In this document: positions 906-60,892 of the stretch, one piece after another
Layout: each line of letters opens with the position of its first letter
How positions within the stretch are numbered: position 1 is the stretch's first letter
Source: Octopus vulgaris
Lineage: Eukaryota
Length of the DNA: 64,000 nt
Direction: 5' to 3'
Assembly: GCA_951406725.2 (NCBI GenBank)
Contig: OX597818.1
Span: 107,384,001-107,448,000, forward strand
Position numbers and translations under genes: made by a program
Notes under the pieces: model-generated
The model's database searches: none
What the model was told of the DNA's origin: nothing
Seen by the model: only the letters and a program-made list of their open reading frames with translations

Positions 906-940
<35 letters not shown>

Positions 941-1697
941 AATGTTTGTAGCCACTTCAACATTGCTGTTCCATTTGAATAGACTTTACTGCAATTTTTT
1001 AACCCCGAGAGGTCATTTCCTCTAGCTGGTAAATGATGCACAGCTGCATCCGATATATTGTGAGCAAGGAACCAACCCCTACCACCTTCTAGCGACAGGA
1101 CCAACACACCAGCCTGGTTTCAGGATATTTCTGCCTCTCTTCAGTACTGGACACTTTGTCTGCTAGAAATGGCAGTTGCTCACCTCTGCTCACAACATAT
1201 ATATAAATTCAAGCAACACACAGTCACTGATCTTGCAACAAGCAAAAACAAGCAGGTGTGCATTGTTAACCAGCCAGAAGAGATGTCCTTTTGGGGTTAA
1301 AAAATCATAGTAAAGTCCGTCTGAGCAGAACAGCCATGTTGAAGTGGCTAGAAACATTACTTGTTAGTACAACTACTGGTATCATCTCTTGGAGAGATTT
1401 TAGAACTAGCCTTTTAGCTTATATATGTGTGTGTGTGTGTGGGGGGGTTGTGTGTGTGTATGTGTGCGTGTGTATTTATATATGTGTTTGTATATACATT
1501 TATATATGTTTGTGCGTTTGTCTCCCACCATTACTTGTGTATATGTTCCTGTAACTTAGCAATTTGGCAAAAGAGACTGATAGAATGAGTACCATGGTTA
1601 AAAATAAAGTCAGTACTGGGGTTGATACATTAGACTAGAATTCTTGAAGCCAGTGCTCCAGCATGGTCACGGTCTAACTGAAAAAGGTAAAAGATAA
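712..1697 (+). mobile_element. CORE-type tRNA-derived SINE (family A), interrupted by a fold-back insertion
   Basis: 5' half 712-880 (GGCACCTTGAGCAAGTGTCTTCT core) and 3' half about 1510-1697 (GGCAAAAGAGACTGATAGAAT...GTGCTCCAGCATGGTCAC) match the intact copy at 18383-18797. Confidence 0.75.
937..1362. mobile_element. Fold-back / MITE-like element with about 110 bp terminal inverted repeats
   Basis: 937-1047 (AAGTAATGTTTGTAGCCACTTCAACATTGCTGTTC...) is the diverged reverse complement of 1252-1362; an inner inverted repeat spans about 1053-1200. Confidence 0.8.
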
Positions 1698-2934: not shown

Positions 2935-3405
2935 TCAAAATCAAAATCAAATATCAAATCACAATCCAATGGATTGTGGCCGATGCCAGTGCTGCCTGAC
3001 TGGCTCTCGTGCTGGTGGCATGCAATAAGCACCATTCATGCGTGGGTCATTGCTAGTGCCGCTTGATTGGCTCCCCATGATGGTGGCACATAAAAAGCAC
3101 CATCCTAATGTGGTTGATGCCAGCCCCCATCACCCCAACTGGCTTCTGTGCCAGTAGCACATAAAAAGCACCATCCAAACATGGCCAATGCCAGTACCGC
3201 CTGACTGGCTTCCATACTGGTGGCACGTAAAATGCACCCACTACACTCTCAGAGTGGTTGGCATTAGGAAAGGCATCCAGCTGTAGAAACATTACCAGAT
3301 CAGATTGGAGCCTGGTGAGGTCTGATGACTTGCTAGTCCCCAGTCAAACTATCCAACCCATGCCAGTTAGGAAAACGGACGTTAAACGATGATGATGATA
3401 ATGAT
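2935..3405 (+). mobile_element. RTE LINE 3' UTR with four internal repeat units and (GAT)n tail
   Basis: Repeated GGTGGCAC(G/A)TAAAA(A)GCACC units, GGCATTAGGAAAGGCATCCAGCTGTAGAAAC, ends CGTTAAACGATGATGATG. Confidence 0.85.
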
Positions 3406-3439
3406 GAGCTTAATTTCTTTCCCATATTTCAGGTTATTA

Positions 3440-20139: not shown

Positions 20140-20750
20140 ATCATCATCACCATCATCATGATCATGATCATGATCATCATCATTTATTGTCCATTTTCCA
20201 TGCTGGCATGGGTTGGACAGTTTGACTGGGGTCTGGGAAGCCAAGAGGCTGCACCATGCTCCAGTCTTATCTAGCAGTGGTTCTACATCTGGATGCCCTT
20301 GCTAATACCAACCATTCCGGGAGTGTAATGGGGGCTTTTTGTGTGCCACTGGCACAGGGACCAGAGAGGGCTGGCAACAACCACAATTGGTTGGTGCTTT
20401 TTATGTGCCACTGGCACGGAAGCCAGTCAAGGTGGCACTGGCATCGACCATGTTTGGATGGTGCTTTTTACATGTCACTGGCACAGGGATCAACTTCAAT
20501 TTCCATTTGATTTTGATTTTGACTCAATAGGTCTCCTCAAGCACGACATGTCCCCCTACAATTCAAGGTACTTTTGAGTGAACTGGTTATGCGACACTGG
20601 TGTAGGTTACACCTGTGAACTCACTTTATTTGCTGGGTCTTCTCAGTCATAGCATATCTCCTGAGGTCTCGGTCTTTCGTCATTGTCTCTGTGAGGTCCA
20701 ACTTTCGAAGGCCATACTTCACCACCTCATTCCATGTCTTCCTGTGCCTA
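20140..20750 (-). mobile_element. RTE LINE 3' end (ORF terminus, UTR and tail)
   Basis: Minus strand reads RKTWNEVVKYGLRKLDLTETMTKDRDLRRYAMTEKT, then the UTR repeat units and (GAT)n tail. Confidence 0.88.
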
Positions 20751-27620: not shown

Positions 27621-27647
27621 CTTTGAAATATATATATATATATATAT

Positions 27648-27930
27648 CATCATCATCATCATCATCATCGTTTAACGTCCGCTTTCCATGCTAGCATGGG
27701 TTGGACGATTTGACTGAGGTCTGGTTCGCCAGACTCCAATCTGATCTAGCAGAGTTTCTACAGCTGGATGCCCTTCCTAACGCCAACCACTCCAAGAGTG
27801 TAGTGGGTGCTTTTACGTGCCACCAGCACGAGAGTCAGTTAGGTGGTACTGGCATCGGCCATGCTCAAATGGTGCTTTTTATGTACCACCTGCACAGGAG
27901 CCAGTCCAGCGGCACTGGCAACGACCTCGT
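27648..27930 (-). mobile_element. RTE LINE 3' UTR and tail
   Basis: (CAT)nCGTTTAACGTCCGCTTTCCATGCTAGCATGGG... with UTR repeat units. Confidence 0.88.
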
Positions 27931-37692: not shown

Positions 37693-37804
<112 letters not shown>

Positions 37805-37806
37805 GA

Positions 37807-38133
37807 TCATCATCATCATCATCATCATCATTTAGCGTCCGCTTTCCATGCTAGCATGGGTTGGACGGTTCAACTGGGGTCTGGGAAGCCAGAAGGCTGC
37901 ATCAGGCCCAGTCTGATCTGGCAGTGTTTCTAAGGCTGGATGCCCTTCCTAACGCCAACCACTCCATGAGTGTAGTGGGTGCTTTTTACGTGCCACCCAC
38001 ACAGGTGCCAGACGGGGCTGGCAAACGGCCACGGACGGATGGTGCTTTTTACGTGCCACCGGCACAGGGGCCAGGCGAGGCTAGCAATGGCCACGATTGG
38101 ATGGTGCTTTTTACGTGTCACCGGCACGGGGGC
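37807..38133 (-). mobile_element. RTE LINE 3' UTR and tail, young
   Basis: Closely matches the reverse complement of about 49330-49647; CpG-rich. Confidence 0.9.
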
Positions 38134-38134
38134 T

Positions 38135-38310
38135 AGTGTATAAACAAAGACGAAGACAAGTGTATAAACAACAAACAGGTGTATTAGTTTAGTGCTCGGG
38201 AAGGTGAGAAAATATTTTATGTTTCAAGCCTATGCTCTTCAACAGAGAGGAACATGAGGAAATAAACAGAGAGCAAATAAAAAAACTTTTGGAGCTAGCA
38301 GTCAATCATG
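38135..38310 (-). mobile_element. Short repeat family H1 with variant hammerhead-like core
   Basis: Reverse complement of 55605-55792 and 60346-60535; minus strand CTGTTGAAGAGCATAGGCTTGAAAC. Confidence 0.65.
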
Positions 38311-38497
38311 GTGGCTGGATGGGCAGAGGTAATTAAATAGAAGAGCTGAGAAGAAATATAGACATACATATATATATATATATATATATTTATTATATAA
38401 ATTAATTTTACTCTGCTATGTATTGAGTACCTTACTTACTGTGGTTAACCCCGAATCAACCCGGGACCTACATATATATATATATATATATATATAC

Positions 38498-38695
38498 AGT
38501 TAATCCAAACAAGAAAGCACAAAAAAACACAACAACGCGAGGACGTGGAACAAATATAGTATTATTGGATGCTCAGGAAAGAAGGAGGGTTTAACGTTTC
38601 GAGCGGAGCTCTTCGTTGGAAACATAGGAGAAGGAAAGATCCAGAGAAGGGAAGACAGAGGAAAAAAAATCGCCACCGGTACGCACGAGGTCACA
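38498..38695 (-). mobile_element. Short repeat family H2 in (TA)n, with minimal hammerhead-like motif
   Basis: Second copy at 50836-51030; minus strand GTTT-CCAACGA-A-GAGC-TCC-GCTC-GAAA-CG-TT-AAAC at 38589-38623. Confidence 0.7.
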
Positions 38696-38898
38696 TTATA
38701 TATATAAATGAAAAATGCATTGTAAATAAACTATGGCAAAAAACCAAAACTTTTAACTGATGAAGAATTAGAGACCCTCTGTGTCTTAAACGTATATGTT
38801 TATATTTGTCATCATTTACTTACAACACATTTTTTTCATTTATGTAGTAATGATATGCAGCACACAACCAATGGTTATAAACAGTAATTTTATGTATG

Positions 38899-49177: not shown

Positions 49178-49646
49178 GTAAGTACCTTGAGAGAAAAGCT
49201 GGACCTAAGAAGCATCAGTTGTGGTGTGCAAGAGAGACGTTTGCGCTGGTATGGTCATGTGGCGAGAATGGATGCGATCAATGGAAATTGCAGATGTGTT
49301 ACCAGTGCCGGTGGCATGTAAGAGAACCTTCCGTTTCGCGACCGTTGCCAGCACCGCCCCGTTTCGTGTTCGTTGCCAGCCTCGCCTGGCCCTCGTGCCG
49401 GTGGCACATAAAAAACACCATCCGTTCGTGGCCGTTTGCCAGCTCTGGCTGGCACCAGTGCGGGTGGCACGTAAAAAGCACCCACTACACTCACGGAGTG
49501 GTTGGCGTTAGGAAGGGCATCCAGCCGTAGAAACACTGCCAGATTTGACTGGGCCTGATGAAGCCTTCTGGCTTCACAGACCCCAGCAGAACCGTCCAAC
49601 CCATGCTAGCATGGAAAACGGACGCTAAATGATGATGATGATGATG

Positions 49647-49647
<1 letters not shown>
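49178..49647 (+). mobile_element. RTE LINE fragment with internal deletion
   Basis: VSTLREKLDLRSISCGVQERRLRWYGHVARMD (RTE RRLRWxGHV motif) joined directly to a CpG-rich 3' UTR and (GAT)n tail. Confidence 0.9.
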
Positions 49648-49679
<32 letters not shown>

Positions 49680-50680: not shown

Positions 50681-51313
50681 GTTTACTTGATTCCCAACCA
50701 TATGATTCCAGGTTCAGTCCCACCACATGGCACTTTGGGCAAATGTCTTCTACTATAATCCCAGGCTAACCAAAGCCTTTTCAGTGGATTTGGTTGATGG
50801 AACTTCAAAGAAGCCCACTATATATATATATATATAGTTAATCCAAACATGAAAACACAACAACGCGAAGACGTGGAACAAATATAGTATTATTGGACTC
50901 TCAGGAAGGAAGGAAAGAAGGAGGGCTTAATGTTTCGAGTGGAGCTCTTCATCAGAAACATAAGAAAAGGAAAGATCCAAAGAAGGGAAGACGGAGGAAA
51001 AAAATCGCCAACGGTACGCACGCGGTCATATGTATATATATATATATATATATACATACACACATGTAGGTATGTATATACACACACATGCACATATATA
51101 CATGATGTCTGCTATTTTGTCTGCGTTTGTCTCACCAACCAGTGTTAGTCTGTTTATATCCCTGAAGATAAGTGATTCAGCAAAGAATCAATGGAACAAG
51201 TGGTTTAAAAAATAAGTGTTGGGGGCCGATTCATTTGATGAAAATTCCTTCAGGTGATGCCCCAGCAAGGCCACAGTCTAATGATTGAAACAATTAAAAG
51301 ATAAAAGATAAAA
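50681..51313 (+). mobile_element. SINE family A, interrupted by family H2 module
   Basis: Head and CORE 50681-50820; 3' half about 51115-51313. Confidence 0.8.
50836..51030 (-). mobile_element. Short repeat family H2 with minimal hammerhead core
   Basis: Minus strand GTTT-CTGATGA-A-GAG-CTCCA-CTC-GAAA-CA-TT-AAGC at 50925-50959; paralog of 38498-38695; flanked by (TA)n. Confidence 0.72.
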
Positions 51314-52200: not shown

Positions 52201-53167
52201 TGATGTATTAGATATTTTTCTATTTAATTTCATTGACACCTATCAAATATATTTCCATTCTAATTCAATTCTCTCCTGAATTCTGTGAGGAATTTCTGGC
52301 ACTAGTGGTGTGTATACATATATGTCAATGTGAGTGCATGTCTGATTGTGTGTGTGTGTGTGTGTGTGTGCATAAAAGCTTGGGTGTGTTTGTATATCTA
52401 AATCTACATGGATGTAAATATTTGTCTGTGTGTGTGTGTGTACATATGTCAGTATGTCTGAGTGTGTGTTTGCCATTACACCCAGATGTTTTACTTTTCA
52501 TTCTGTAAATATGTTACGTAAAAAAACACTAAACGGATTTATAGATACACGCACACATGTATGCACACATGCAGGCACACACACACAGACACCCCTCAAA
52601 TACAAATGCACAGCTACATAAACTAATAAAGGATCCCTTTTTTGGTCTTTTGACCTGCTAAAGATAGCAGCTATATCTCTATCAAATCAAAACCCAACAA
52701 AGACAACACATCAGGTAACATAATTTAAGAAAGCCATAAAAAAATGGGGAAAAATCATGGCAGGAATGGTTTACTCGGTGAACACGAATATAGCTCTGTG
52801 TGTGTGTGCGTGGGTGGGACAGTCATGGATTTCCATCACTAACAGCACTGTGACCCCTCAACATTTTCCATTGACATGGATTAGACTGCTTCAGAGAGAA
52901 TTTGTTGAGTAGATGAAATTCGTTGATGCCGACCCATTCTTCTGTCTGAAGTCAGATACTTGACTCTGTGCTTCCATAAACTGGATACTGTGAGACATCT
53001 TGTTCATGAGACACATAAACAATGCCACCCCGATTCTCTGTTGGCTAAAGATACATAAATACAAACACTGATGTACACACACACATATGTATTTTACATA
53101 TATGTGGGGGGGGGGGAGGGGGTGTATGTGAGTGTGTATAATTTCGAACAAACAGTAAGTTGTCATT

Positions 53168-53226
53168 ATAGTACTCGGAGTTTCGAATATCGGAGTGAAG
53201 AGCTACGATACATTCTCATCGGCTAT
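53168..53226 (-). ncRNA. Hammerhead ribozyme motif, U4C variant
   Basis: Minus strand ATAG-CCGATGA-GAAT..ATCG...CGATATTC-GAAA-CT-CCG-AG-TA-CTAT. Confidence 0.55.
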
Positions 53227-53405
53227 TTATAGCAACAGACGCTATATAAAACCATTAAATATAAGGGAAGTTACTGTAATATATATATTTTATGTATAAA
53301 TATATATATATTGTGTTTGCGTGTGTGTATGTGTGCAGTATGTGAATGTGCATATGTACATATATATATATATATATATACTTTATTTAAAAGCAGCAAA
53401 AATTC

Positions 53406-53458
53406 AACAAAACCTGTTACTCGGAGTTTCACGTTCCTGTTCATCAGACAGTTTTGTT
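53406..53458 (-). ncRNA. Type I hammerhead ribozyme motif
   Basis: Minus strand AACAAAACTGT-CTGATGA-AC-AGGAAC-GT-GAAA-CT-CCG-AG-TA-ACAG(G)TTTTGTT; long stem I, short stem II. Confidence 0.7.
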
Positions 53459-53634
53459 AAAATCAAATAAAGTAAATAAAGTTTTTCGACCTTGTTTCAC
53501 ATTTATGTGTTTACTCTGGTATATATATATATATATATATATGTATAAATAATAAGGGTAAAAATTAATATCTATTTAAACCAGTGGCCATACATTCTGG
53601 CATTTGACAGTGGTTCATCATTATACAAGCTAAC

Positions 53635-53665
<31 letters not shown>

Positions 53666-54952
53666 CTTCTCTCCTCCTCTTTCTTCCTCTCACTCTCTCT
53701 CACCCCTTCTCTCTGCCCCTCTCTCTCTCTGCCCCTCTCTCTCTCTGCCCCTCTCTCTCTCTCCCTCACTTTCTTGCAGAAATTATAACACCAGAACAAA
53801 TATGCTTGATTAGCAAAAGAAACAAGGTGATACTTCATTGCAGATACCAGAAGAATTAGTTTTTGAAAGGAAAATGAACCAAAACACAACCAACACGAAC
53901 ATCTGATGAAACTGCAACAGAAAAGGAAGTGGAAACACAATAATGCTTGTCTGAATGGAACAACAAAGCAACAAAATAACTAAACATATTAACTCACAGG
54001 AAAAAATTGACTCTTGAGAGACATCAGATATAAAATGCAAACTCCAACAGGAGTAGATATTAAAACGTCTTTAGTGACAGATATTTAATATGTAAGATAT
54101 AATAAAAATAACAACTTATGAAGCAGAGAGTCTGACAACTTTTAACAATGAGTATTTGAAGGATGCAATCAACAACAACTGAACCAGCCAATCAAAAGGT
54201 AATAAACACATAAAGAAATCTATGAGTTAGCAACAGAGGAATGCAATTACAGAATCAGAAAGTGAAGACAGAATGACCACTAAATTAGCCAATGAAAAAT
54301 TATTGACAGATATACAATTTTAGGGGGAAAAAATTAGATAAATGGGTTGTATAAAACTATATAAAGTTAAACAAAAGTGGAATCGAACAATGGAAAATAG
54401 TGCAACCAACAGAAAACATAGAGGATTAAGAAAATTCCTTTATGAAAGACTATTTAGTGAGTAAAAAAATCTGAGATGGTTATTTGCATTTTTATTCTTA
54501 ATTACACCTAGGCAGGTTCAGACACAAAATGTGTTAGTCGTTTTAATATAAATCAAAGGAGAATAACTTCCCTCTTTTTAAGATAACCATGTGTTGAACA
54601 TACCTGATTCATTGGCACATAGGATTCTGTGACACCAGGGAACAAATCTGCAGATAATCATTCCATATCTCACTGCACATGCTGCAAGTAATGATTGTTT
54701 TATCAGTTGGCAGATATATAAGCACTGCTCAACAGATTTATACATTGAAAGTATACAAAAAAAAGCCAATGGCTTGGTTTAGATTTAAAAGACCCAGGTG
54801 TATTTCTGGCTCATGAGGCACATTTTGAAATACTAGTGCCACACACCCCATGTGCCTATGAGCCAAGTGTATTGAACACACAGCCATCATAAAAGAGAGG
54901 AGTTATTCTCCTATTACCCAGCAGTAACCAACATATTTTGTGTCTAAGATAT

Positions 54953-55045
<93 letters not shown>

Positions 55046-55055
55046 TTTATATATA

Positions 55056-55493
55056 GAGGGCATTATTATACATACATGCCACACGCTAAGAGGGACAAAA
55101 TTAGTCATTTCTACCAAAAATTTTACTAATCCCACCGAATGCAATTTTTCAAAGTAAGACATTTAAAATATAGACTTGTATCACCTGTGATTTCATACCT
55201 CTGTATTCATCAGCAAGCCTGGACGCATCATAAATAAACGACCCTACCTCGTCTAAGCCGAGCAGCTAACTGATCAACATCAACGAAGCACATGGGTGAG
55301 TTTACATATATTACATCCGGTAAATGGCAGACTTTTACGAATTGCATTTCGGGAAGGAAAAGTTTTTTCGGAATAAAAATTTAGCAATTAAGGACAACTT
55401 CTTAATAAGGAAAACTTAACAAGAAATTATCAGGTAGATAGCGTGAAAGACCTCATAAGAAAAAATTTCGAAAATAATTCTTTCTTATTGAAC
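55056..55493 (-). mobile_element. Young 438 bp hammerhead-bearing element inside (TA)n
   Basis: Flanked by 17 bp direct repeat ATATTAGTTTATATATA (55039-55055, 55494-55510); CpGs retained; contains the ribozyme at 55172-55220. Confidence 0.65.
55172..55220 (-). ncRNA. Canonical type I hammerhead ribozyme
   Basis: Minus strand AGGCTTG-CTGATGA-ATAC-AGAG-GTAT-GAAA-TCA-CAGG-TGA-TA-CAAGTCT; all three stems pair and the core is invariant. Confidence 0.85.
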
Positions 55494-55497
55494 ATAT

Positions 55498-55550
<53 letters not shown>

Positions 55551-55551
55551 C

Positions 55552-55599
<48 letters not shown>

Positions 55600-55604
55600 C
55601 ATTC

Positions 55605-55785
55605 ACAATGATAGATTGCTAGCCACTATACCTTTTTCTATTTTCTCTTCCTGTTTAGTTCTGTGTTCCTTTCTGTTGAAGAGCATAGGCTCGAAATGTA
55701 AAAGAATTTTTTTCCCGAGCATTAAACTAATACATCTGATTGTTATTTACACACCCATCTTTGTCTTTTGTTATTTTGTAAATTC

Positions 55786-55792
<7 letters not shown>
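55605..55792 (+). mobile_element. Short repeat family H1 with variant hammerhead-like core
   Basis: CTTT-CTGTTGA-A-GAGC-ATAG-GCTC-GAAA-TG-TA-AAAG at 55669-55704; between (TA)n runs. Confidence 0.7.
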
Positions 55793-58552: not shown

Positions 58553-58669
58553 GTATCAAATCCATAATTTGTAACCTACTAACAACTGCCATTCTTTAAA
58601 CAACAAAAACTTTAAAAATTACTATTTGTAAATCTCACAATGAGAGATATTCAGCAACAGTACTTTGGA

Positions 58670-58962
58670 GTAAAGATTATTTGCCAACATAGCATGGCAG
58701 TCCTAGTTTAGGACGTATGTAACAGTAATTTAGCCCCAGAAGACATCGTCTCCAGCTAGGCTGATGAAGGGAAATAACCCGGAAATCGCAATACACAGAT
58801 ATTCTTTTGAGCTGAGTTGGGGTGCTAGATATCTTTTTTTGAAAATATAAGGACACAGATTGTGTCACACAGCCAGATGGAAACGATGTCTCCTGGGGCT
58901 AAATTACAGCAAAATTCGTCCTAAACTAGGACTGCCATGTTATGTTGGCATATAATCTTTAC
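58670..58962. repeat. About 93 bp inverted repeat enclosing a hammerhead-like core
   Basis: 58670-58763 pairs with 58870-58962 (shared CATGGCAGTCCTAGTTTAGGACG and GTAATTTAGCCCCAG); CTGATGA-A-GGG..CCC-G-GAAA at 58761-58785. Confidence 0.85.
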
Positions 58963-60081
58963 AACAAAATGTAAATTTGCCCCTGTGTGCAAAGCTTTCT
59001 CAAACTAGAATCACCCCATATTTTGGCATAGAAAAGTTGATATAAAATATTTCGTAATAGATATCTAGACAGAAGCTGGGACTACAAGGGTAAGAGAGCA
59101 TTTCAAATTCTGTTGCATTTCTCCTTTTATTAGTGGAGTTAAGACAATTAAACGAGTTGCTGTGTTGAACACATTTATTTACAAAATAAATTACAAACAT
59201 GATAATGAAGCAGCCACTTCATACAAGGCCATACATATGACTGTATGACTGCAAAGTATATCATAATGGCAAAGAAGTCATTAAAGCAAATTAAAAGTCA
59301 ACAAACCACATTGAAAATTAATTAGAATTATGAAACTATCAATTGATAACAAAAGATAATTATGCGCAACTTAAAATCCAATAGAAAACCATCAAATTCA
59401 AATTCTTTATCATCATTTCATCTATCAAAAGGCCCAGTCCTTGTTTGATGTGTGGTGTGTATGCCTCAATGATCCTAAGAGCTGAGCCACTGAAGGGGAA
59501 TCTTCTTGTAGGACCCACTCCCCATGATGTATACAGGTCAGAGGATAGAGGCCAGATTAATGAGGACCACCTCTTCCCAGAAGTAAAAATATTTAAAACT
59601 ATTATTCAATAAATTCTATATTCCATAAGGATATGATTGAAGGGAAATTTCTGATAGGGTGGGTAAGCAAATGTGTTACATAAATGTTCTCTCATGGACT
59701 CAAATATATTCATGTGTATGTATTTATACTCATGTTTTGAATTCTGTTTAGGTTAGAAAATAATAGCTATTTATGCAAATAGGATAGGTCAAAGGAGGAG
59801 TAAAAATACTATAAAGTGTTGGTAATGCTAATCATGTTTATAGTACTAAGTAATAGTATTTATCATAATAATACATTACTTATCAATTTAATATAATTTT
59901 TCACTTACTACTAGTAGGCATTTCAGTCAATCCACCTATTATCCGAAATAGGTAGACCAGGGCCTACCACCAGGTATAATTGGTCAGTTAGTATTTAAAA
60001 ACAAAAAACTGACTACTAATAAACCGTTATTCTCCAGGGTAAAATAAACAAATGATATAAGGTACAAGGGGCACGGAACTG

Positions 60082-60345: not shown

Positions 60346-60535
60346 ATATCGCTAGCCACTAAACTTTTTTCTATTTTCTTTCCCTGTTTATTTCTGTGTT
60401 CCTTTCTGTCGAAGAGCATAGGCTCAAAATGTAAATGACTTTATCACTTCCCGAGCATTAAACTAATACATCTGTTTTTTGTTTACACACCCATCTTCGT
60501 CTTTTGTTGTTTGTTTTTGTTGTAAATTGTCGCTA
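60346..60535 (+). mobile_element. Short repeat family H1, third copy
   Basis: GCTAGCCACTA...CTTTCTGTCGAAGAGCATAGGCTCAAAATG...TTCCCGAGCATTAAACTAATACATCTG. Confidence 0.7.
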
Positions 60536-60892
60536 TATACACACAGACATAAATATATGTGGAAGTATCATCCATTGTCAACATTGTTATCCTCATCATG
60601 ACCCCACGGTAACCACAAACTAAAGACCTCAAATATAAGAAACTATAGAAATTGTGAAACTGAACAAAACCGGTTTTCATAGTTAGGCACCGTAGAGTTC
60701 TTGAATGATAAACAAATCTTCCCTAAAGAACACAGCTTTCCCAACTAAAGGAACTGAACTTGGTTTCTGCAATCTAGCACATCACTAACAATAATGACTT
60801 ATACACTATGCATGACTTCCAGATCTTTGAAATCTAAGCATTTGGGCCATAGACTGGACTTTAGGAATTAAGATGTCTTAGCAATGAACATA

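What the first reader, a model, noticed from the sequence alone, without database searches (positions are those of the whole stretch)
55039..55510. Young 438 bp non-coding element with a textbook hammerhead and 17 bp flanking repeats
Seen: complete ribozyme (7 bp stem I, 4 bp stem II, 4 bp stem III, AUA triplet) in a CpG-retaining insert within a long TA tract, bounded by ATATTAGTTTATATATA. Inference: best candidate for an active monomeric ribozyme and a recently mobile retrozyme-like unit. The direct repeat could be a TSD or terminal redundancy from a circular template.
Basis: partly seen in the sequence, partly recalled or inferred. Interest (0 to 1): 0.7.

Follow-up and report, generated by a model that had tools for sequence, protein, structure and literature searches.

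The report
Lone octopus hammerhead retrozyme-like insert
A 438-base non-coding insert, lying in a TA microsatellite between two identical 17-base repeats, carries a complete hammerhead ribozyme motif and is likely a lone octopus copy of a retrozyme, a known kind of small jumping RNA that would borrow the enzymes of Penelope-like transposons.

Summary
A complete type I hammerhead motif lies on the minus strand (predicted cut 55179/55178; 0 of 150 shuffled windows give one). Exact 17-bp repeats bound a 438-bp insert in (TA)n. The host is likely an octopus. The minus strand is predicted to fold into a complete, nested, self-paired structure. No ORF, Pol III box pair, paralogue in the window or Rfam hit was found.

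'Textbook' and 'young' are overstated. Pair 10.1–11.1 is A–U, loop II lacks the usual terminal A, and CpG retention also marks diverged neighbouring families. Monomer activity is plausible but untested.

Best reading: a solo, PLE-mobilised retrozyme-like unit of 455 nt, whose reverse transcription likely ran 17 nt past its start on a circular or tandem template. A 17-bp target-site duplication is the main rival. With one ribozyme, this locus could not release a circle by itself. At least ten other hammerhead-type motifs lie in the same 64 kb. It is a new member of a known kind, and no octopus case turned up in my searches. No octopus genome could be searched, so family membership is unproven.

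The parts
54977..55042 (.). left (TA)n tract, preceded by (AC)12; likely target site, at the 3' end of the element's RNA
55039..55055 (-). 17-bp direct repeat, 3' copy (short TA run, non-TA core, short TA run)
   Evidence: exact match to 55494-55510
55049..55503 (-). proposed 455-nt unit if the repeat is element-borne (repeat-to-repeat period 455); inferred
55056..55493 (-). 438-bp non-coding interior, 34.7% GC, CpG o/e 0.99
55059..55080 (-). predicted 3'-terminal hairpin, ending 3 nt before the repeat
55082..55445 (-). predicted large nested domain closed by helix 55445-55439 / 55088-55082 (pair probabilities 0.87-0.98)
55107..55380 (-). predicted rod of 45 pairs (55380-55321 with 55165-55107) that joins sequence upstream and downstream of the ribozyme, plus a side arm 55318-55221
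   Evidence: mean pair probability 0.81
55172..55220 (-). type I hammerhead motif, 49 nt; core 55213-55207; predicted cleavage between 55179 and 55178
55453..55491 (-). predicted 5'-terminal hairpin of 15 pairs, starting 2 nt inside the repeat
55494..55510 (-). 17-bp direct repeat, 5' copy
55503..55599 (.). right (TA)n tract, shared with a second, unrelated hammerhead-type insert at 55600-55789

Best explanation
The insert carries a complete type I hammerhead motif in a strand predicted to be tightly self-paired, and is likely a solo copy of a 455-nt non-autonomous retrozyme-type element of an octopus that a Penelope-like reverse transcriptase/endonuclease would have copied into a (TA)n tract. 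Steps: (1, inferred from known retrozymes) a tandem source locus elsewhere is transcribed, and the hammerheads cut out unit-length RNA. (2, inferred) The 45-pair rod holds the sequence on the two sides of the cut together and a host ligase closes a circle. (3, inferred) A TA-preferring PLE endonuclease nicks the microsatellite, and the left flank's 3' end primes on the short AU run next to the unit junction. (4, inferred from the geometry) Reverse transcription goes once round and 17 nt further, ending at the unit's longest TA run (8 nt), which anneals to the right flank. The 17-bp repeat is then terminal redundancy, and the empty site was plain (TA)n. (5, follows from the sequence) This copy has one ribozyme, so it can at most cut a read-through transcript once and cannot release a circle by itself. 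Shown: motif, repeats, flanks, no coding hit. Predicted: the fold. Untested: cleavage, paralogues, circular RNA, the partner element.
For: The motif is far beyond chance. The fold is strand-specific: z -7.1, 0 of 100 shuffles as stable; z -6.7 on minus against -2.9 on plus; 122 pairs at p>0.8, 15 of them G-U. Both insert ends coincide with the ends of complete hairpins, and a helix joins the near-5' and near-3' ends, which is not what a random 5' truncation would give. Helix III is full-size, whereas metazoan PLE ribozymes are minimal (PMC4209133). Size, GC below 50% and self-pairing match animal retrozymes, and solo monomers are common in such families (PMC7229834; 10.64898/2026.07.22.740005). 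No ORF hit. For redundancy: the repeat includes the longest alternating TA run of the unit (8 nt against 4-6 for the others); 28 of 35 short interruptions in the window's TA tracts are simple C/G substitutions and only 4 of 35 are multi-base non-alternating ones like this core; the 10-nt core occurs 6 times against 0.6 expected, 3 of them in sense orientation behind the ribozyme motif of another family. The host is likely Octopus (6 of 6 hits), and O. vulgaris has 31 recently active PLE families (PMC13282606). TA targeting is reported for Neptune and Naiad PLEs (PMC8557442).
Against: No paralogue was seen: none in the window, and no eukaryote genome could be searched, so tandem copies and the internal junction are unobserved. 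The fold gives no support for closure across the junction: circular -123.0 against linear -128.1 kcal/mol, with only a TA-based hairpin there. The active hammerhead fold is not the predicted minimum in the monomer, the circle or an in-silico tandem. The shared 10-mer reduces to 3 independent occurrences, which is weak. The one PLE studied in vitro starts reverse transcription at sites not homologous to the cut DNA (PMC11167929), unlike step 3. PLE insertions and animal retrozymes can carry TSDs of variable length. None of 13 other inserts tested shows such end repeats. 2 of 18 control segments reach similar folding z-scores; they contain an inverted repeat or a microsatellite.
Confidence: 0.5

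Rival explanations
1. The element is of the same kind (a whole non-coding hammerhead retroelement), but the unit is 438 bp and the 17-bp repeat is an ordinary target-site duplication made by staggered nicks around a pre-existing interruption in the TA tract.
For: The repeats are exact and abut the target microsatellite on both outer sides. PLE TSD length is variable (PMC8557442), and animal retrozyme TSDs are longer than 4 bp when present (PMC7229834). The anole PLE endonuclease prefers an ATT motif (PMC11167929), and the repeat contains one. A TSD would be invisible in a pure TA tract, which explains why only 1 of 14 inserts shows one.
Against: It needs a rare kind of interruption at the target (4 of 35). 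The same core occurs inside another hammerhead-type family.
Confidence: 0.27
2. It is the 5'-truncated end (pseudo-LTR plus the first 120-140 nt after the ribozyme) of an autonomous Penelope-like element, flanked by a TSD, and was never an independent unit.
For: PLE ends carry type I hammerheads and most copies are truncated singles (PMC4209133). In the anole element the ORF starts at the ribozyme and reverse transcription starts 111-118 nt into it. Here the 3' end lies 123-140 nt behind the cut, and one sense frame is open for 41 codons to the end. The window is full of PLE-type minimal ribozymes.
Against: The 41-codon frame and a 50-codon upstream frame find no relative: none among near-length proteins, one spurious saposin-repeat hit among 1.84 billion representatives, and no Pfam hit in 7 element frames. 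The ribozyme lacks the minimal-PLE features. The 5' end coincides with the start of a complete hairpin. The repeat is 17 bp, not the 30-40 bp PLE tail.
Confidence: 0.18
3. It is a Pol III-transcribed SINE with a ribozyme (Schistosoma type) mobilised by a LINE, or a chance or assembly product.
For: Such SINE-like hammerhead elements exist (PMC6765202 passages). The genus is SINE-rich.
Against: No A box followed by a B box on either strand (recalled consensus), no tRNA gene, no poly(A) or simple-repeat tail of its own, and several T runs of 4 or more on the sense strand that would stop Pol III. Chance is excluded.
Confidence: 0.05

Closest known systems
Metazoan non-LTR retrozymes, especially the mussel Mytilus galloprovincialis element (PMC7229834; results and discussion read, supplement unreadable)
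   Same: Mollusc host; non-coding; GC below 50%; type I hammerhead; strongly self-paired; no LTR. The mussel ribozyme also lacks most loop-loop contact bases, still cleaves (about 0.1 per min), and some mussel circles are predicted to fold the ribozyme shut.
   Different: The unit is 438-455 nt against 350-390 (150-450 for animals in that paper). It is solo here, not tandem; it sits in (TA)n; helix III has 4 pairs; stem I opens into a predicted branched junction. Expression and circles are not shown.
Solo retrozyme monomers derived from PLE pseudo-LTRs (bioRxiv 10.64898/2026.07.22.740005; parts 1-3 of 5 read)
   Same: Dispersed single full-length units beside tandem sources; family sizes 51-972 bp; proposed dependence on PLEs.
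   Different: That survey covered 31 vertebrates and 4 invertebrates (three insects and a coral; no mollusc). Its 'active' class needs two or more tandem ribozymes, which this locus lacks. Only 1 of 9 tested elements cleaved.
Pseudo-LTRs of EN+ Penelope-like elements (Neptune, Poseidon, Hydra; PMC4209133, PMC8557442, PMC11167929)
   Same: Type I hammerhead a short way before the 3' end; partial-tandem end repeats; AT-rich or (TA)n targets.
   Different: No RT/GIY-YIG ORF; the ribozyme is not of the minimal type; the repeat is 17 bp, not a 30-40 bp tail.
Schistosoma SINE-like hammerhead repeats (PMC6765202 passages)
   Same: Short, non-coding, type I hammerhead.
   Different: No Pol III box pair and not tandem here.

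Membership tests
Type I hammerhead ribozyme | conserved core CUGANGA / GAAA / NUH around three helices, helix I open | tested here: met
   helices 7/4/4 pairs, triplet AUA; 0 of 150 shuffled windows
Type I hammerhead ribozyme | G10.1-C11.1 closing pair (typical of canonical motifs, not absolute) | tested here: not met
   A-U here; typical pair per PMC4209133
Type I hammerhead ribozyme | loop 1 / loop 2 tertiary contact (unpaired U1.7 with the A at L2.4) | tested here: inconclusive
   U1.7 is present but drawn paired at the end of stem I; L2.4 is G (PMC11875169 passages); other contacts cannot be modelled here
Type I hammerhead ribozyme | match to an Rfam hammerhead model | tested here: not met
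   none of the window's other hammerhead motifs reached a gathering score either
Type I hammerhead ribozyme | self-cleavage | not testable with these tools
   folding only: active fold +3.4 kcal/mol, within the range of redesigned controls
Metazoan non-LTR retrozyme | short non-coding unit (150-450 bp; 51-972 in the wider survey), GC below 50%, no long terminal repeats | tested here: met
   438/455 bp, 34.7% GC, end repeats only 17 bp, no ORF hit
Metazoan non-LTR retrozyme | type I hammerhead in a highly self-paired RNA | tested here: met
   (prediction)
Metazoan non-LTR retrozyme | tandem copies with two or more ribozymes at the locus ('active' definition) | tested here: not met
   single copy; so it is not filed as an active retrozyme locus, at most a solo monomer
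Metazoan non-LTR retrozyme | family with many genomic copies, some tandem | not testable with these tools
   no eukaryote genome collection; no match in window, GTDB, phages or plasmids
Metazoan non-LTR retrozyme | expressed as unit-length linear and circular RNA | not testable with these tools
   no transcript data available
Autonomous Penelope-like element (end fragment) | RT and GIY-YIG ORF adjoining the ribozyme-bearing repeat | tested here: not met
Autonomous Penelope-like element (end fragment) | minimal ribozyme: extra base before a G-C-closed helix II, short palindromic helix III | tested here: not met
   against PMC4209133
Autonomous Penelope-like element (end fragment) | insertion in AT-rich or (TA)n target | tested here: met
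   PMC8557442
Pol III SINE with hammerhead (Schistosoma type) | internal A box followed by B box, or tRNA-derived head | tested here: not met
   (box consensus recalled)

The most novel reading that the evidence does not exclude
This is a cephalopod retrozyme family, not found in my searches, whose insertion junction is a fossil of rolling-circle reverse transcription. A 455-nt circular RNA was primed by a nicked TA microsatellite at a short AU run beside its junction, copied once round plus 17 nt, and resolved at its own longest TA run. That would be a direct genomic footprint of the more-than-unit-length cDNA step that the retrozyme papers I read propose but do not show, and would point to a TA-targeting PLE as the mobiliser.
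Probability: 0.35. Interest if true: 0.55.

Novelty: new member of a known kind. Interest (0 to 1): 0.32.

Why it matters
In kind it is ordinary: hammerhead-bearing retrozymes and PLE ends are widespread in invertebrates, and this window alone holds about ten more such motifs. Its value is as a test case. The retrozyme papers read here infer, but do not show, that a circular RNA is reverse-transcribed into more than one unit and inserted by PLE enzymes. A solo copy with a short, non-TA end repeat in a TA target lets that step be checked from genomes alone (internal junction in paralogues, plain empty site). It would also add cephalopods to the hosts and offer a hammerhead with an A-U closing pair and a 4-pair helix III for kinetic comparison.

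Tried and rejected
PARALOGUE SEARCHES. Self-BLAST of the window gave a best off-target E of 0.09. An exact 27-mer scan of GTDB genomes gave 0, and blastn of phages and plasmids gave 0. These collections hold no eukaryote genomes, so the negatives say little.

PROTEIN SEARCHES. Looking for paralogues through spurious translations gave nothing for two frames among near-length proteins. The single phmmer hit was a 1250-aa saposin-repeat protein matched in 9 weak stretches and was rejected. Pfam on 137 frames (132 of the 593 unmasked frames of 38 aa or more, plus 5 further element frames) gave no RT, endonuclease or convincing exon; 3 hits fell below their cut-offs. Host-gene orientation is therefore unknown.

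RFAM. Only microsatellite artefacts.

IDEAS DROPPED. (a) A 21-codon frame at 55495-55433 resembles a recalled Penelope C-terminal motif, but it lies in a long hairpin, is closed by stops and has no Pfam hit. (b) 'All window ribozymes lie on one strand': family B has copies on both strands. (c) 'A designed off-switch': the competing fold is a 9-nt register shift, but the active fold is the minimum in only 10.9% of 2000 redesigned controls, and 24% have a gap of 3.4 kcal/mol or more, so it is not special. (d) 'Obligate dimer': favoured for two isolated 49-mers (-25.6 against -20.4 kcal/mol) but not in a full in-silico tandem (-260.4 double, -260.8 two singles, -267.6 minimum); left open. (e) CpG as an age clock. 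(f) The bacterial promoter/terminator scan was at chance level and is irrelevant to this host.

LITERATURE NOT SEEN. The paper on dimeric PLE hammerheads (PMC5785218) was not held.

Full report
OBSERVATION. On the minus strand, 55220-55172 reads as a type I hammerhead with 7, 4 and 4 pairs in helices I, II and III, an intact core and an AUA triplet, which puts the cut between 55179 and 55178. It is the only motif in the window that passes the strict descriptor, and 0 of 150 shuffled windows gave a hit even with a looser one. The 17-bp repeats at 55039-55055 and 55494-55510 are exact, cannot be extended, and their core occurs nowhere else in the window. They abut TA tracts on both outer sides. 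The 438-bp interior has CpG o/e 0.99 against 0.31 for the window.

HOST AND NEIGHBOURHOOD. A frame through an interspersed repeat hits only predicted Octopus vulgaris proteins (6 of 6, 66-83% identity), so the host is likely an octopus; the species was not determined. No exon or RT remnant appeared among 137 frames scanned against Pfam, which were only part of the 593 candidates. The window holds five more descriptor-level hammerheads (58546, 56159, 53447, 53222, 28092) and two short families with minimal or decayed cores (38497-38696 and 50837-51032; 55600-55789, 38140-38300 and 60348-60558). Of 11 motif positions, 9 lie within 200 nt of a TA run, against 28% of random positions (five positions were placed by eye). 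The element is thus one of many TA-targeting hammerhead inserts, but the only one with a full-size helix III, and the only one of 14 regions tested with visible end repeats.

THE RIBOZYME. It is complete but not textbook. The pair closing helix II is A-U, where G-C is typical (PMC4209133). U1.7 is present but drawn paired, and loop II ends in G rather than the A that makes the known contact (PMC11875169 passages). Rfam finds no hammerhead even at E=10. ViennaRNA prefers a register-shifted inactive fold by 3.4 kcal/mol in the isolated motif, the full unit and the circle. That is not strong evidence against activity: in 2000 redesigned controls the active fold was the minimum in only 10.9%, 24% had a gap at least this large, and the other five window motifs have gaps of 4.4-6.8. 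Two isolated copies co-fold into the double hammerhead as their minimum, but in a full in-silico tandem neither active form is the minimum. The mussel retrozyme ribozyme also lacks the loop contacts and cleaves slowly (PMC7229834), whereas only 1 of 9 frog elements cleaved. I put the chance that this copy cleaves as a monomer in vitro at roughly 0.5-0.6 (judgement).

THE UNIT. The minus strand folds far better than shuffles (z -7.1, 0 of 100) and than the plus strand (z -6.7 against -2.9). 2 of 18 control segments reach similar scores, and both hold an inverted repeat or microsatellite. The predicted structure is closed and nested: a 15-pair hairpin starting 2 nt inside the 5' repeat, a domain spanning 55445-55082, a 45-pair rod that joins the two sides of the ribozyme, and a last hairpin ending 3 nt before the 3' repeat. 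In a cut-to-cut monomer the rod would bring the two cleaved ends near each other (inference). No sense frame has a relative, and there is no Pol III box pair (recalled consensus). This argues for a whole non-coding element rather than a broken-off PLE end, though a conserved-structure test is impossible without paralogues.

THE REPEAT. If the 17-mer belongs to the element, the unit is 455 nt and the insertion is one unit plus 17 nt. On the sense strand the 17-mer is an 8-nt TA run, a short non-TA core and a 4-nt AT run, and the 8-nt run is the longest alternating run in the unit. Priming by the nicked left flank at the 4-nt run, one full round of reverse transcription and resolution at the 8-nt run would give exactly the observed ends (inference). 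In support, interruptions like this core are uncommon in the window's TA tracts (4 of 35), and the same 10-mer lies behind the ribozyme motif of another family (6 matches against 0.6 expected, 3 of them independent). Against, the fold gains nothing from closing the circle, the anole PLE initiates without target homology (PMC11167929), and TSDs of variable length are known for PLEs and animal retrozymes. I weigh redundancy at about 0.5 and a TSD around a whole element at about 0.27.

AGE. CpG retention does not date it. Two copies of a neighbouring family keep CpG o/e of about 1.2 while 9% apart, and an exact 17-mer only bounds divergence below about 16%. The intact core and helices fit a fairly recent insertion, and O. 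vulgaris has 336 recently active PLE insertions in 31 families (PMC13282606 passage).

MECHANISM AND COMPARISON. The published model for animal retrozymes is tandem transcription, hammerhead cleavage, ligation by a host enzyme, and reverse transcription of the circle into more than one unit by a probable PLE (PMC7229834; PMC7761336; PMC4209133). Solo monomers occur and are read as offspring that cannot move on. This locus fits that last description: it works like a retrozyme monomer, but it fails the tandem criterion for an active locus, and family membership awaits paralogues. It fails the ORF and minimal-ribozyme criteria for a PLE end and the Pol III criterion for a SINE.

NOVELTY. Ten literature searches (at most the top 20 listed each) showed no paper describing an octopus retrozyme. 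The O. vulgaris repeat paper has no occurrence of hammerhead, ribozyme or retrozyme in its main text, and the giant squid genome paper counts 235 hammerhead-1 matches. The library lacks most subscription papers. Supplements that could bear on this were not seen: that of PMC7229834 (unreadable), file 1 of PMC4209133, the PMC13282606 supplement (listed only) and its deposited library, and those of the bioRxiv preprint. The family may already sit, unrecognised, in an octopus repeat library.

WHAT WAS READ. 10.64898/2026.07.22.740005, parts 1-3 of 5; PMC7229834, parts 2-4 of 6 and passages; PMC11167929 and PMC4209133, parts 1-2 of 4 (plus supplement passages for the latter); passages only of PMC8557442, PMC6765202, PMC13282606, PMC11875169, PMC6962438, PMC5680766 and PMC7761336.

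VERDICT. A real, well-formed hammerhead-bearing insert, likely a solo retrozyme-type copy moved by PLE enzymes. New member of a known kind; interest 0.32, rising to about 0.55 if the end repeat proves to be the footprint of rolling-circle reverse transcription.

Noticed in passing
window 53381-53519 (-): 139-bp insert between two TA runs with a minimal PLE-type hammerhead (core at 53447) and a long extension of stem I.
   Followed up: partly
window 53150-53280 (-): Hammerhead variant with core CCGAUGA (53222), a long helix II and the same helix III sequence as the 53447 motif; CpG o/e 1.57.
   Followed up: partly
window 58546 (-): Hammerhead with a palindromic helix III, about 400 nt from the nearest TA run and close to a 100-bp inverted repeat (58664-58763 / 58870-58968) that looks like a MITE.
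   Followed up: partly
window 56159 (-) and 28092 (-): Two copies of one hammerhead family with a long helix II, 78% identical over 72 bp.
   Followed up: partly
window 38497-38696 and 50837-51032 (-): Family of about 200 bp, each copy between TA runs, with a minimal hammerhead (intact core in the second, decayed in the first) and CpG o/e of about 1.2.
   Followed up: partly
window 55600-55789 (+), 38140-38300 (-), 60348-60558 (+): Family of about 190 bp. All three copies have U in place of the core A6 (CUGUYGA), so it is either dead at the source or a core variant. All carry the same 10-mer as the finding's repeat about 25 nt behind the motif. One copy shares the finding's right TA tract, in the opposite orientation.
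   Followed up: partly
window 52619-52628 (+): The same 10-mer occurs just after a CA tract, at what may be the start of another repeat.
   Followed up: no
window 53800-54480 (+): A-rich stretch that reads like a decayed coding region; the two frames scanned gave no Pfam hit.
   Followed up: partly
window 3073-3407, 20158-20488, 27628-27924, 37788-38136, 49364-49654 and others: Abundant SINE-like family of about 300 bp. Its spurious translation matches predicted Octopus vulgaris proteins, which therefore look like repeat-derived gene models.
   Followed up: partly
window 937-1362: Inverted repeat (937-1047 / 1252-1362, 79% identical) giving a folding z-score as strong as the finding's.
   Followed up: no
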